Assembly: GCF_054482595.1 (NCBI RefSeq)
Contig: NZ_CM137008.1
Strand: one strand, 5' to 3'
DNA: 64,000 nucleotides
The position numbers were made by a program. Shown piece after piece: positions 1 through 3,000 of the stretch. Every line of letters starts with the position of its first letter. Position 1 is the stretch's first letter.

Positions 1-3000
1 TTAATGCTGGCTATTGTTGAAAATCACTGGCAGGACGCGCATTTCGACGCCTTTCAGGAGGGGTTGCTTTCTTTTACTGCGGCATTAACCGATTACAAAA
101 TTTATTTGCTGACGATCCGTAGCAATATGGATGTTTTGACGGGATTGCCGGGGCGTCGGGTTCTTGATGAATCCTTTGATCATCAGTTACGCAACACTGA
201 GCCTCTGAATCTTTATTTAATGTTGTTGGATATTGACCGATTTAAATTGGTTAATGATACCTACGGGCATTTAATCGGCGATGTAGTATTACGCACCCTG
301 GCAACTTACTTAGCCAGTTGGACGCGTGATTACGAAACGGTTTATCGCTACGGGGGCGAAGAATTTATCATTATTGTCAAAGCGGCTAATGATGAAGAAG
401 CATGTCGTGCAGGTGTCAGAATTTGCCAGTTAGTCGATAACCATGCCATCACACATTCTGAAGGGCATATCAACATTACCGTGACAGCAGGTGTGAGTCG
501 CGCATTTCCTGAAGAGCCTCTGGATGTGGTCATTGGAAGAGCAGACCGGGCAATGTATGAGGGTAAGCAAACCGGAAGAAATCGCTGCATGTTTATTGAC
601 GAACAAAATGTGATTAACCGAGTTTAAGCTCCGTTTAACATTCATTGAGAAAACTGATGCTACTGTGTCAACGATCCGTTATCAGTGCAGGAAAATGCCT
701 GTTAGCGTAAAAGCAAAACACAAATCTATCCATGCAAGCATTCACCGCCGGTTTACTGGCGGTTTTTTTTCGCCGTCATAAAAATCAGGCCCCTTGTACA
801 CAACTGTAACAAGGGGCCGGTTAGGTGAGGGATTATCTCCGTTCATTAGTCATCCCATTTGTGGCTGAAATACGCGGCCAGAAAACCAGAAAATAAAATT
901 ATTCCCAGTACGGCCATAAAAACATTCATATTACCCAGCATTATTTGCCTCCGTTTATGGTGTGGTGTGTTTCCTCGCTTACCTTAATTTTCATCTCAAT
1001 GAGAAAGATATTAGCAGAGGTAACCTAAACGAAGGCTGAATTAAATTTTTATTGTGTTCGACTTAAATCAACAAAGCGCGGGCTGCCCCCACGGTCTTGC
1101 ACGAATCCCTTTTAACATCAGCACCCACGCAGCAATGATCACCAACGCTAAGATGACAAACAGCGAGGAAGGCGGCAGGCTGGTTAGCACTACGCCACTC
1201 ACTAATGGGTTAATCGCGGCACCAAGCCAGCCTAAAGACTGGGCGGAAAAATAGCTGGCTTTCATTCCTGGCGGCGCAATATGGTCAATCAACATATACT
1301 CGCCCGGCGCATAAATGATTTCACCGACAGTAAATACCGCAGCTGACATACCCCACAATAGCAGGCTGTTGCCGGAAAAAATAAAACCGACCAGACCGAT
1401 GACGAAACATAGGGTGCCTGCTGTCATCAGCGCGCGGATGTTAGCCGGGTTAAGTCGGCGGCCCACGGAATATTGCAACGTAACCACCATGGCAGCATTC
1501 ACCGGAAGAACAACCGCGACCACCTTTTCGGCAAAATCCCCATCAGCAATCACCATCACATATTGTGAAATGCATGAAGCAAATGCGCCGCTTACAAAAG
1601 AAGCCAGAAAACCAGAGCAGGTAAACCACAACAGTGTTTTATCTTGTAATAAAACTTTCGGCGACCAGACACTGCCTGTTTCCGTGGCGATGATTTTCTC
1701 GCTGCGCTTTACCCAAATTTGAATGAAAAGCATGGGAAACGCGGAACAGATAGCTGCCAGCCAGAAGGGCAGATTGATGCTCTGCATCACCAACAGCGTG
1801 CCGAGCGGCGGACCGATGGTCCAGCCAATGTTTAGCATGGTGTAGTTGATTGAGAAGATTTTCGTTTTGCTGGTGGACGAAAGATTGTCGGCAAACCAGG
1901 CTTTCAGCACGGTAGCAAAAACAGAATAGGCGCAGTTAATGAGGGCAAAAAAGAGCACCACCAGCGTTACGTTATTCACTAAAGGAATGGCAATAAAACC
2001 GCTGGCGAAGGCGGTAATTGCCAGTAACATATAGCGTTTCTTGTCGAACTTATCCGCCAGGATACCAAAACCGAGGCTAAAAACGACGCCAATAGTGAGC
2101 GCAATTGTCATCGCATAACCGATTAGATCGACACTCAGGCTGTACTGGCGACTCAAGTAAATGGTCATAAATGGCAGCGTAGCGCCGCGTCCGATGGTTA
2201 ATAACAACGACGAGGCAAGAAGGGCGCTGGTAGAGCGTCGTAGGGATAAGTTCATTTGTCTGTCCGGCAGTGCGTTTCGTTATGTTTTGTTTTAGAGATG
2301 TAAAGAAATAGCATGGCAAAAATCCGAAGTATAGCGACTTATTTGCGCATTAATGCCGTCGTAACCGGCGACTAACGAATCAACTGTTAAAGAAAAGTAA
2401 ATTCAGCTAAGTTGATTGCTTACAAAAGATGAAATTCAGAGGCGGTAGAATGTCGCGAAAAGATGGGGTGTTGGCGCTACTGGTAGTGGTCGTATGGGGG
2501 CTAAATTTTGTGGTCATCAAAGTGGGGCTTCATAACATGCCACCGCTGATGCTGGCCGGTTTGCGCTTTATGCTGGTCGCTTTTCCGGCTATCTTTTTTG
2601 TCGCACGACCGAAAGTACCACTGAATTTGCTGCTGGGGTATGGATTAACCATCAGTTTTGCGCAGTTTGCTTTTCTTTTTTGTGCCATTAACTTCGGTAT
2701 GCCTGCTGGACTGGCTTCGCTGGTGTTACAGGCACAGGCGTTTTTTACTATCGTGCTTGGCGCGTTTACTTTCGGGGAGCGATTGCATGGCAAACAATTG
2801 GCGGGGATCGCCTTAGCGATTTTTGGCGTACTGGTGTTAATCGAAGATAGTCTGAACGGTCAGCATGTGGCGATGCTCGGCTTTATGTTGACCCTGGCTG
2901 CAGCATTTAGTTGGGCGTGTGGCAACATCTTCAATAAAAAGATCATGTCGCACTCAACGCGTCCGGCGGTGATGTCGCTGGTAATCTGGAGCGCTTTAAT

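What the first reader, a model, noticed from the sequence alone, without database searches (positions are those of the whole stretch)
628..1067. mgtS small-protein gene with an adjacent terminator-defined non-coding unit (candidate MgrR sRNA)
A 31-codon ORF below the ORF-track cutoff encodes MLGNMNVFMAVLGIILFSGFLAAYFSHKWDD, which I recognise as MgtS, with its own terminator hairpin. On the plus strand the 118 bp after the dgcZ stop end in a strong intrinsic terminator (745-770). The spacing fits a ~98-nt sRNA, as for MgrR in K-12, but it could also simply be the dgcZ terminator; strand and ends are uncertain.
Basis: partly seen in the sequence, partly recalled or inferred. Interest (0 to 1): 0.35.

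Follow-up and report, generated by a model that had tools for sequence, protein, structure and literature searches.

The report
Known MgrR sRNA beside mgtS-mgtT

Summary
The observation and the interpretation both hold, and the locus is already known.

- **mgtS:** window 846-941 (-) encodes exactly MLGNMNVFMAVLGIILFSGFLAAYFSHKWDD. It matches NCBIfam small_MgtS at 80.6 bits and Pfam MgtS-like at 88.2 bits.
- **MgrR:** window 673-770 (+) corresponds base for base to the annotated K-12 gene mgrR (b4698, 98 nt) with one SNP. It lies inside a 281.9-bit hit to Rfam RF01407 (STnc560), the only Rfam hit in the 64 kb.
- **Independent gene, not just the dgcZ terminator:**
  - A PhoP box (632-648) sits exactly 12 nt before an extended -10. 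This arrangement recurs in 84 of 96 enterobacterial homologues.
  - 62 of 78 homologous loci have no dgcZ upstream.
- **mgtS signals:** it has its own conserved PhoP-box promoter (1042→1008, -) and its own terminator (818→778, -).
mgtT (742-846, -, 34 aa) overlaps the mgtS stop by one base. It contains the mgtS terminator hairpin and is antisense to the last 29 nt of MgrR.
- **Limited conservation of mgtT:** the 34-aa form is found only in Escherichia.

The E. coli genes and their regulation are already published.

The parts
4..627 (+). 3' part of dgcZ (ydeH), diguanylate cyclase; context gene, cut by the window start
   Evidence: ORF; annotated dgcZ at the equivalent position in RefSeq records.
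621..626 (+). Extra AGTTTA hexamer, 11 nt upstream of the conserved PhoP half-site and overlapping the dgcZ stop codon (625-627). It was seen intact only in the window and E. whittamii.
   Evidence: Pattern match 621-637. The hexamer is not conserved outside Escherichia in the promoter listing.
632..648 (+). PhoP box of the mgrR promoter: CGTTTA-ACATT-CATTGA, at -41 to -25 relative to MgrR +1
   Evidence: The motif xGTT(T/G/A)A-N5-x(A/G)TTxA, followed by exactly 12 nt and TAnnn(T/A/C), occurs in 84 of 96 distinct homologues, against a fraction of 0.0004 in shuffles. PhoP binding itself was not tested here. PhoP dependence of mgrR is published (PMC3536696, PMC6239178).
658..666 (+). Extended -10 of mgrR: TGcTACTGT; the hexamer TACTGT (661-666) ends 6 nt before +1
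   Evidence: Read from the sequence. A TG-n-TAnnnT is conserved in homologues. Its role as the promoter is inferred.
673..770 (+). MgrR small RNA, 98 nt
   Evidence: Maps base for base to MG1655 ncRNA mgrR b4698 with 97/98 identity. Lies inside the Rfam RF01407 hit 639-852, 281.9 bits.
677..707 (+). MgrR 5' stem-loop (nt 5-35)
   Evidence: MFE structure; agrees with published RNase probing (PMC6239178). A 5' hairpin of -8 kcal/mol or better is kept in 93 of 95 homologues despite sequence divergence.
708..743 (+). MgrR single-stranded centre: an A-rich (ARN)-type Hfq site, then the seed at nt 55-68 (window 727-740, UAUCCAUGCAAGCA)
   Evidence: Unpaired in the centroid fold. The ARN motif and the U55-A68 pairing region are described in PMC6239178. 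Nt 55-68 pair with eptB -6..+8. A 19-nt stretch containing the seed recurs exactly in about 98 enterobacterial-type contigs.
744..770 (+). MgrR Rho-independent terminator: 8-bp stem 744-763, loop TTTA, U8 tail 763-770. It is also the first terminator downstream of dgcZ.
   Evidence: The stem ACCGCC/GGCGGU and the U-tail are nearly invariant in 95 homologues, and one stem pair shows A-U to G-C changes in 25 sequences.
742..846 (-). mgtT, a 34-aa small ORF (MNGDNPSPNRPLVTVVYKGPDFYDGEKKPPVNRR). Its ATG shares one base with the mgtS stop (TAATG). It is antisense to MgrR nt 70-98 (742-770).
   Evidence: ORF; annotated mgtT in RefSeq; Pfam PF23498 at 96.3 bits. Found by ribosome profiling and tagging (10.1101/511675). 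Described as a PhoQP-dependent mgtS-mgtT operon with no deletion or overexpression phenotype (PMC11429745).
778..818 (-). mgtS intrinsic terminator: 13-bp hairpin 818->788, then UGAUUUUUAU; it lies inside the mgtT ORF
   Evidence: Fold. The GGCCCCUUG...CAAGGGGCC stem plus T-run is conserved after mgtS in non-Kluyvera genera, where the T-run is mostly longer and closer to the stem than in E. coli. Terminator function is inferred; it is consistent with the ~190-nt yneM transcript in Salmonella (PMC2515195).
846..941 (-). mgtS (yneM), a 31-aa inner-membrane protein
948..952 (-). mgtS Shine-Dalgarno GGAGG, with 6 nt between it and the ATG
   Evidence: Read from the sequence; conserved in homologues.
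1008..1042 (-). mgtS promoter: PhoP box AATTCA-GCCTT-CGTTTA (1042->1026), a 12-nt spacer, and -10 TAATAT (1013->1008). The predicted start is near 1001-999.
   Evidence: The same arrangement (xxTTxA-N5-TGTTTA, 12 nt, TAnTAT) is conserved upstream of mgtS across genera. The predicted ~58-60-nt leader fits the 58-nt 5' UTR quoted in 10.1101/2021.06.30.450655. The start site was not measured here.
1068..2255 (-). ydeE, MFS exporter; context gene bounding the spacer
   Evidence: ORF; annotation.

Best explanation
Window 628-1067 is the E. coli dgcZ-ydeE spacer. It holds two convergent transcription units that are induced by low Mg2+ through PhoQ/PhoP.

**Plus strand: MgrR.**
- Phosphorylated PhoP binds a box at 632-648 that replaces the -35 element. 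It activates an extended -10 promoter and starts MgrR at G673.
- The 98-nt RNA ends at a Rho-independent terminator (744-770).
- MgrR has a 5' hairpin, an unpaired A-rich (ARN) stretch, a seed (nt 55-68) and a U8 tail.
- As a class II Hfq-dependent sRNA it binds both the distal and the proximal faces of Hfq. It base-pairs over the start codons of targets such as eptB and ygdQ, blocking translation.

**Minus strand: mgtS and mgtT.**
- A second PhoP-box promoter (1042->1008) drives mgtS (941->846). Its 31-aa membrane protein stabilises the MgtA Mg2+ importer.
- Most mgtS transcripts should stop at the hairpin 818->778. Those that read through allow translation of mgtT (846->742), which starts on the last base of the mgtS stop codon.

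**Shown here:** sequence identity, family membership, the predicted structures, and promoter and terminator conservation.

**Taken from the literature:** PhoP dependence, Hfq binding, target repression, MgtS function and MgtT expression.

**Inferred:** the exact mgtS start site, partial read-through at the mgtS terminator, and dgcZ transcripts ending at the MgrR terminator.
For: **Identity of the genes**
- Rfam RF01407 hit of 281.9 bits on the + strand, the only Rfam hit in the window.
- Base-for-base mapping onto annotated mgrR, mgtS and mgtT of MG1655.
- The region is present in 5416 of 5426 complete E. coli genomes.
- MgtS and MgtT match their HMMs.

**MgrR structure and pairing**
- The predicted fold matches the published probing.
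- The seed pairs with the eptB start region exactly where published.

**Promoters**
- PhoP box plus 12 nt plus -10 in 84 of 96 homologues, against 0.0004 of shuffles.
- The mgtS promoter is conserved.

**Independence from dgcZ**
- 62 of 78 homologous loci with at least 900 nt of upstream DNA lack dgcZ there.

**Conservation**
- Terminator and 5' hairpin are conserved.

**Literature**
- PMC2515195.
- PMC3536696.
- PMC6239178.
- 10.1101/511675.
- PMC11429745.
Against: - No expression data exist for this particular strain. The start sites are taken from the K-12 annotation (mgrR) or from promoter geometry (mgtS).
- The MgrR-eptB duplex energy (-17.6 kcal/mol) is not unusual for the base composition: 134 of 1000 shuffles do as well. 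Only the position of the pairing supports it, not the statistic.
- The primary paper on MgrR (Moon and Gottesman 2009) could not be read here.
- The Rfam family is named STnc560, and no paper in the searchable library uses both names. The equivalence rests on position, sequence and the MG1655 annotation.
Confidence: 0.97

Rival explanations
1. The 118 bp after dgcZ plus the hairpin are only the dgcZ 3' UTR and terminator; there is no independent sRNA gene.
For: No other terminator-like site lies between the dgcZ stop (627) and 744, so dgcZ transcripts very likely do end at 770. The PhoP box begins only 5 nt after the dgcZ stop.
Against: - A PhoP box and an extended -10 at fixed 12-nt spacing are conserved in 84 of 96 homologues.
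- The same RNA, with promoter and terminator, occurs without dgcZ upstream in 62 of 78 loci, including Salmonella, Klebsiella and Enterobacter.
- MG1655 annotates a separate ncRNA there.
- A ~90-nt Hfq-bound RNA was seen in Salmonella.
- mgrR-lacZ promoter fusions respond to PhoP levels.
Confidence: 0.02
2. The non-coding unit is transcribed from the minus strand, either as a long mgtS 3' UTR or as a minus-strand sRNA using hairpin 744-763 in the other direction.
For: The mgtT ORF and any mgtS read-through transcript do cross 742-770 on the - strand. The hairpin is preceded on the - strand by an A8 run, so the stem itself is symmetric.
Against: - On the - strand the hairpin is followed by GAAUGCUUG, with no U-run.
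- The Rfam match to the MgrR part is on the + strand only.
- The annotated mgrR is on the same strand as dgcZ.
- The conserved promoter lies upstream on the + strand.
Confidence: 0.01
3. This concerns mgtT only. The 34-aa ORF is not a functional gene but a read-through ORF. Its apparent conservation comes from the RNA elements it overlaps: the mgtS terminator stem codes for RPLV...KGP, and the reverse complement of the MgrR terminator codes for KKPPVNRR.
For: - An ORF starts at the same TAATG/TGATG in nearly all non-Kluyvera genera, but it runs 7 to 66 codons with unrelated C-termini. 34 aa is seen only in E. coli and E. albertii, and 30 aa in E. whittamii.
- Within Escherichia the variable residues fall in the hairpin loop (TVVY, TTAY, AVMH, TFVC), while the stem-encoded residues stay constant.
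- MgtT is less conserved than MgtS between Escherichia species: it differs at 6-7 of 34 residues, against 0-2 of 31 for MgtS.
- Neither deletion nor overexpression gave a phenotype (PMC11429745).
Against: - The protein is detected when tagged, and ribosomes initiate there (10.1101/511675).
- Translation initiation signal at mgtT, and mgtT mRNA, both rise in low Mg2+ (PMC11429745).
- Pfam holds a family, PF23498.
- The first six codons are conserved beyond the hairpin.
Confidence: 0.35

Closest known systems
MgrR of E. coli K-12 (b4698; Moon and Gottesman 2009)
   Same: Same position between dgcZ and mgtT-mgtS, same strand, same 98-nt length, 97/98 identical, and the same promoter, seed and terminator.
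   Different: One substitution at nt 4 (C here, U in K-12), in the unpaired 5' end just before the 5' stem. No functional consequence is expected (inference).
STnc560 (Rfam RF01407), the Salmonella Hfq-bound sRNA of the ydeI/ydeE spacer
   Same: Homologous RNA. It is convergent with yneM/mgtS (STnc570), ~90 nt on Northern blots and 29-fold enriched with Hfq. The window matches the full model at 281.9 bits, and a Salmonella locus matches at 195.7 bits.
   Different: The 214-position Rfam model is much wider than the RNA. In the window it covers 639-852: part of the promoter, MgrR, the mgtS terminator and the last codons of mgtS. Salmonella has no dgcZ upstream.
Class II Hfq-dependent sRNAs (ChiX, CyaR, McaS)
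   Same: An ARN-type A-rich internal site plus a U-rich terminator tail, so both faces of Hfq are bound; MgrR is placed in this class in PMC6239178. The A-rich stretch and the U8 tail are present here.
   Different: Different seeds, regulons and inducing signals; this is a mechanistic analogy, not sequence homology.
MgtS (YneM), NCBIfam NF033842 / Pfam PF22865
   Same: Identical 31-aa sequence, full-length HMM match, and a PhoP-type promoter.
   Different: None detected.
MgtT (b4775), Pfam PF23498
   Same: Identical to WP_211180496.1, with the same one-base overlap with the mgtS stop.
   Different: Nothing differs from the E. coli protein. However, the ORF is not conserved in length or C-terminus outside Escherichia.
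Natural dual-function RNAs such as SgrS/SgrT
   Same: One stress signal yields both a base-pairing sRNA and a small regulatory protein. The Storz laboratory fused MgrR and mgtS into a synthetic dual-function RNA.
   Different: Here the two activities are on separate, convergent transcripts, not on one RNA.

Membership tests
MgrR / STnc560 sRNA (Rfam RF01407) | Match to the family covariance model at or above the gathering score | tested here: met
   281.9 bits against a gathering score of 55, E 2.6e-66, + strand, full model 1-214. It is the only Rfam hit in the 64-kb window.
MgrR / STnc560 sRNA (Rfam RF01407) | Correspondence to the annotated mgrR gene (98 nt) at the syntenic position | tested here: met
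   MG1655 ncRNA b4698, 1622817-1622914, maps to window 673-770 at 97/98 identity, between dgcZ and mgtT-mgtS.
MgrR / STnc560 sRNA (Rfam RF01407) | PhoP-dependent promoter (PhoP box in place of the -35 element) | tested here: met
   CGTTTA-N5-CATTGA at 632-648, 12 nt before the -10. This architecture occurs in 84 of 96 homologues against 0.0004 of shuffles. Actual PhoP binding and activation are not testable here; they are published.
MgrR / STnc560 sRNA (Rfam RF01407) | Rho-independent terminator with a long U tail (Hfq proximal-face site) | tested here: met
   8-bp stem plus U8, conserved in 95 homologues.
MgrR / STnc560 sRNA (Rfam RF01407) | Unpaired A-rich (ARN) stretch and a seed (nt 55-68) complementary to the eptB translation start | tested here: met
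   The region is unpaired in the fold. Nt 55-68 pair with eptB -6..+8 at -17.6 kcal/mol, the published region. Caveat: the energy is matched by 134 of 1000 shuffles, so the match is positional, not statistical.
MgrR / STnc560 sRNA (Rfam RF01407) | Accumulates as a ~98-nt Hfq-dependent transcript in low Mg2+ | not testable with these tools
   This needs a Northern blot or RNA-seq. It is published for K-12 and Salmonella.
MgtS small protein (NCBIfam NF033842, Pfam PF22865) | Full-length HMM match above the curated cut-off | tested here: met
   80.6 bits (cut-off 35), residues 1-31 of 31; Pfam 88.2 bits (cut-off 27).
MgtS small protein (NCBIfam NF033842, Pfam PF22865) | Translatable ORF with a Shine-Dalgarno sequence and a PhoP-type promoter | tested here: met
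   GGAGG with 6 nt between it and the ATG. The PhoP half-site TGTTTA/CGTTTA, 12 nt and TAnTAT are conserved across genera.
MgtS small protein (NCBIfam NF033842, Pfam PF22865) | Inner-membrane protein that binds and stabilises MgtA | not testable with these tools
   Published. Only the hydrophobic core VFMAVLGIILFSGFLAAYF can be seen in the sequence.
MgtT small protein (Pfam PF23498) | Full-length HMM match and a start overlapping the mgtS stop codon | tested here: met
   96.3 bits (cut-off 27), residues 1-34 of 34; TAATG overlap at 846.
MgtT small protein (Pfam PF23498) | Conserved as a protein of similar length and sequence in genera that keep the mgrR-mgtS pair (expected of a functional gene; not a formal criterion of the family) | tested here: not met
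   ORF lengths run from 7 to 66 codons and C-termini are unrelated outside Escherichia. The conserved residues coincide with the terminator stems.

The most novel reading that the evidence does not exclude
The convergent layout may itself be regulatory. In Escherichia the mgtS terminator has a short, offset U-run (UGAUUUUUAU), whereas most other genera have 6-8 U directly after the stem. Read-through could then create the Escherichia-specific 34-aa mgtT ORF and an mRNA perfectly complementary to the last 29 nt or more of MgrR. Two PhoP-induced partners would thus cross-talk in cis, through antisense pairing or through polymerase collision. On this reading MgtT's sequence would be shaped mainly by the two overlapping terminators rather than by protein function.
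Probability: 0.12. Interest if true: 0.35.

Novelty: already known. Interest (0 to 1): 0.08.

Why it matters
As a discovery it does not matter. MgrR, MgtS and MgtT of E. coli, their PhoQ/PhoP control and their roles are all published. Those roles are LPS modification through eptB and Mg2+ import through MgtA (and, by the title of Yin et al. 2019, PitA).

The value here is as a check on the first stage:
a reader without tools recognised a 31-codon gene and correctly predicted the strand, length and 3' end of an unannotated sRNA.
the overlapping mgtT ORF.
- **The refutation rule:** 'no Rfam hit to MgrR' would have misfired on the name alone, because Rfam files this RNA as STnc560.

The cross-genus comparison adds three minor points:
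- A refined PhoP-box position.
- The fact that MgrR travels without dgcZ, and often without mgtS.
- The poor conservation of mgtT outside Escherichia.

Tried and rejected
- **MgtS as a search query:** I anchored the genome scan on a 19-nt stretch containing the MgrR seed instead.
- **Full-length MgrR versus the eptB leader:** RNAduplex gave a meaningless 80-nt duplex no better than shuffles. Repeating it with only the unpaired centre recovered the published site, but without statistical distinction.
- **Consensus fold of 95 homologues:** RNAalifold recovered only the terminator, because MAFFT cannot align the divergent 5' hairpins. I folded each 5' part separately instead.
with 2 mismatches it gives 25 hits in the window against 20 expected, so it is uninformative alone. 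Cross-species footprinting was needed.
- **Papers that could not be read:** Moon and Gottesman 2009, Wang 2017 and Yin 2019 are not held. No paper in the library uses both the names STnc560 and MgrR.
- **Weak Rfam hit:** the match to Hrs13 (16.2 bits, E 0.39) is only terminator resemblance and was rejected.
- **Upstream ORF in the mgtS leader:** a 17-codon uORF (994->941) was considered. It was dropped because it starts about 5-7 nt from the predicted 5' end, has no Shine-Dalgarno sequence, and its ATG is missing in E. albertii and in other genera.
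Full report
**1. What is in the sequence**

- The window opens inside dgcZ (ORF to 627, +). It then has a 440-bp spacer (628-1067) and ydeE (1068-2255, -).
- On the + strand an 8-bp G+C-rich stem (744-763, loop TTTA) is followed by eight T (763-770). This is the only + strand terminator-like site found in 400-1300.
- On the - strand, just after the small ORF, there is a 13-bp hairpin (818->788) followed by UGAUUUUUAU.

**2. Identity**

*Presence in E. coli*
- The 561 bp around the spacer occur in 5416 of 5426 complete E. coli genomes, mostly at 99% identity or more.
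- RefSeq annotates dgcZ, mgtT, mgtS and ydeE there.

*MgrR*
- MG1655 also annotates the ncRNA mgrR (b4698, 1622817-1622914, 98 nt).
- Aligning the window to MG1655 gives three substitutions in the 553 aligned bases. It places mgrR at window 673-770 on the + strand, with one difference at RNA position 4.
- Rfam gives a single hit in the whole 64 kb: RF01407 'STnc560 Hfq binding RNA', 639-852, + strand, 281.9 bits against a gathering score of 55.
- STnc560 is the ~90-nt RNA, 29-fold enriched with Hfq, that Sittka et al. found in the Salmonella ydeI/ydeE spacer. It is convergent with STnc570, the ~190-nt yneM (= mgtS) transcript (PMC2515195). That is the same arrangement as here.
- The 214-position Rfam model is wider than the RNA. 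It also covers part of the promoter, the mgtS terminator and the end of mgtS.

*MgtS*
- The peptide matches NCBIfam NF033842 (equivalog, 80.6 bits, cut-off 35) and Pfam PF22865 (88.2 bits) over its full length.

**3.

- A 34-codon ORF at 742-846 (-) is annotated as mgtT (b4775) and matches Pfam PF23498 at 96.3 bits.
- Its ATG uses the last A of the mgtS TAA (TAATG).
- It runs through the mgtS terminator hairpin and ends inside the MgrR terminator, so 742-770 is shared antisense with MgrR.
- MgtT was found by ribosome profiling of stalled initiation complexes and confirmed by tagging, at lower levels than MgtS (10.1101/511675).
- mgtS-mgtT behaves as a PhoQP-dependent operon. MgtT showed no deletion or overexpression phenotype and was not found in the membrane (PMC11429745).

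**4. Anatomy of MgrR**

- The 98 nt fold at -25.9 kcal/mol (z = -2.9) into three parts:
  - a 5' stem-loop, nt 5-35;
  - an unpaired centre;
  - the terminator, nt 72-91, followed by the U tail.
- This matches published RNase probing. That work also places an (ARN)5-like A-rich Hfq site and the pairing region U55-A68 in the unpaired centre (PMC6239178).
- Using the MG1655 eptB leader, the unpaired centre of this MgrR pairs through nt 55-68 with eptB -6 to +8, across the start codon, at -17.6 kcal/mol.
- The position agrees with the literature. The energy alone is not distinctive, because 134 of 1000 shuffles do as well.

**5. Is it an independent gene or just the dgcZ terminator?**

*Sampling*
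- I scanned one genome per bacterial species for a 19-nt stretch containing the seed. This found 100 stretches of DNA.
- Two, from Atopobium and Cyclobacteriaceae, look like chance matches. The rest carry enterobacterial sequence.
- Representative loci from Salmonella, Kosakonia, Siccibacter, Trabulsiella and Enterobacter pass the Rfam gathering score. Klebsiella and Kluyvera fall below it for the over-wide model.

*Promoter*
- Upstream of the RNA, 84 of 96 distinct sequences carry xGTT(T/G/A)A-N5-x(A/G)TTxA, then exactly 12 nt, then TAnnn(T/A/C). The fraction in shuffles is 0.0004.
- Eleven of the other twelve are Citrobacter sequences with CATTGG in place of CATTGA. The twelfth is the L018 copy described in section 8.
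- In the window this is CGTTTA-ACATT-CATTGA (632-648), then 12 nt, then TACTGT (661-666) preceded by TG (658-659). G673 follows 6 nt later.
- This is a PhoP box centred on the -35 region of an extended -10 promoter. My recollection is that this matches the usual geometry of PhoP-activated promoters.
Its upstream half (AGTTTA, 621-626, overlapping the dgcZ stop) was seen intact only in the window and E. whittamii.

*Synteny*
- dgcZ ends within 500 nt upstream in only 16 of 78 loci with enough upstream DNA. These are Escherichia and some Citrobacter.
- The other 62 loci keep the promoter, RNA and terminator without dgcZ.

*Structure conservation*
- The terminator stem and U tail are nearly invariant, with one covarying pair.
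- A 5' hairpin of -8 kcal/mol or better is kept in 93 of 95 homologues although its sequence changes.

*Conclusion*
- The unit is therefore an autonomous gene.
- No other terminator was detected after dgcZ, so dgcZ transcripts presumably also stop at 770 (inference).

**6. The mgtS unit**

- Upstream of mgtS on the - strand lie AATTCA-GCCTT-CGTTTA (1042->1026), 12 nt, and TAATAT (1013->1008).
- The downstream half-site, the spacing and the -10 are conserved across genera.
- The predicted start, near 1001-999, gives a leader of about 58-60 nt. [quoted passage not shown]
- Transcriptional mgrR- and yneM-lacZ fusions both fall when PhoP synthesis is repressed (PMC3536696).
- Convergent mgtS lies within 400 nt of MgrR in 46 of 94 loci. 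These are Escherichia, Salmonella, Citrobacter, Kosakonia, Kluyvera, Phytobacter, Yokenella and relatives.
- In Enterobacter, Klebsiella, Raoultella, Lelliottia, Leclercia and others it is absent from that position, and sometimes lies several kb away.

**7. mgtT in comparison**

- In almost all non-Kluyvera genera an ATG overlaps the mgtS stop and the first six or so codons are similar (MNGDNP-like).
- The ORF then runs anywhere from 7 to 66 codons, with unrelated C-termini.
- 34 aa is found only in E. coli and E. albertii, and 30 aa in E. whittamii.
- The residues that stay constant (RPL, KGP, KKPPVNRR) are encoded by the stems of the mgtS terminator and by the reverse complement of the MgrR terminator. 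The residues encoded by the hairpin loop vary.
- In E. coli the U-run after the mgtS hairpin is short and offset (UGAUUUUUAU). Most other genera have 6-8 U at or within one base of the stem.
- This fits, but does not prove, the idea that mgtT is an Escherichia-specific read-through ORF.
- I give about 0.35 to the view that it has no protein-level function.

**8. Side observations**

- In Kluyvera the mgtS stop lies 3-8 nt from the MgrR terminator, with no separate hairpin. One hairpin seems to serve both genes.
- One genome (Enterobacteriaceae bacterium RIT691) has two MgrR copies 1.6 kb apart, and the copy next to mgtS has no PhoP box.
- Contigs labelled Caldithrix and Chryseobacterium carry enterobacterial mgrR-mgtS DNA and are probably contamination.

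**9. Verdict**

- Observation: confirmed. Interpretation: supported.
- The locus is the published E. coli MgrR / MgtS / MgtT low-Mg2+ module, differing from K-12 by one base in the RNA.
- Novelty: already known. Interest: low.

Noticed in passing
window 742-846 (-): mgtT, an annotated 34-aa ORF. It overlaps the mgtS stop by one base, contains the mgtS terminator hairpin and is antisense to the last 29 nt of MgrR. The 34-aa form is seen only in Escherichia.
   Followed up: yes
window 829-846 (-): The 18 nt after the mgtS stop (ATGAACGGAGATAATCCC) are conserved across genera, even where the ORF that starts there is only 7-8 codons long. I could not tell whether the constraint acts on the peptide or on the RNA.
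   Followed up: partly
window ~965-983 (-), mgtS 5' UTR: A motif TTAAGGTAAGnGAGG, about 25-40 nt upstream of the mgtS ATG, is conserved in Escherichia, Citrobacter, Kosakonia, Phytobacter and others. Its function is unknown to me.
   Followed up: no
window 621-626 (+): A third GTTTA hexamer lies 11 nt upstream of the conserved PhoP box and overlaps the dgcZ stop codon. This gives three direct repeats at 11-nt spacing. It was seen intact only in the window and E. whittamii.
   Followed up: partly
window 941-994 (-): A 17-codon upstream ORF in the mgtS leader has a stop (TAA) that overlaps the mgtS ATG. It begins about 5-7 nt from the predicted 5' end, has no Shine-Dalgarno sequence, and its ATG is absent in E. 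albertii and other genera. It is probably not meaningful.
   Followed up: partly
L104 ~800-1577 (E. coli 29A20CPO013; also hit H2, strain 14EC047): In a few E. coli strains an IS1 element sits between the 3' end of ydeE and the mgtS promoter. It lies just upstream of the mgtS PhoP box and leaves mgrR, mgtT and mgtS intact.
   Followed up: partly
L018 1400-1505 (-) and 2994-3099 (-) (Enterobacteriaceae bacterium RIT691): Two tandem MgrR copies lie 1.6 kb apart, and both pass the Rfam gathering score. The copy convergent with mgtS lacks the PhoP box; the other copy has it.
   Followed up: partly
L017, L034, L040, L043, L083, L087, L088 (Kluyvera and a relative): The mgtS stop codon lies 3-8 nt from the MgrR terminator and there is no separate mgtS hairpin. 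A single hairpin appears to terminate both convergent genes. MgtS is also more divergent there (PDNMQVF..., GKWND).
   Followed up: partly
L007, L070, L065, L023, L096 and others (Enterobacter, Klebsiella, Raoultella, Lelliottia, Leclercia): MgrR keeps its PhoP-box promoter and terminator but has neither dgcZ upstream nor mgtS convergent within 400 nt. In K. michiganensis (L092) and a Pluralibacter MAG (L049), mgtS lies 4-6 kb away.
   Followed up: partly
L010 (MAG labelled Caldithrix sp.) and L097 (labelled Chryseobacterium sp. 18061): Both contigs carry enterobacterial mgrR-mgtS DNA. L010 encodes MgtS and MgtT identical to the window's and a YdeE 99% identical. These are likely contamination or mis-binning in the public assemblies.
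   Followed up: no
window 639-852 (+), Rfam RF01407: The Rfam model is 214 positions long and named STnc560. It spans part of the mgrR promoter, the 98-nt RNA, the mgtS terminator and the end of mgtS. Its boundaries and name therefore do not reflect the mature sRNA, and Klebsiella and Kluyvera homologues fall below its gathering score.
   Followed up: yes
window 36737-36753 (+) and 40251-40267 (-): Two near-perfect matches (one mismatch each) to the (T/G)GTTTA-N5-(T/G)GTTTA PhoP pattern lie elsewhere in the window. The overall count of such matches is at chance level (25 against 20 expected), and these two were not examined.
   Followed up: no
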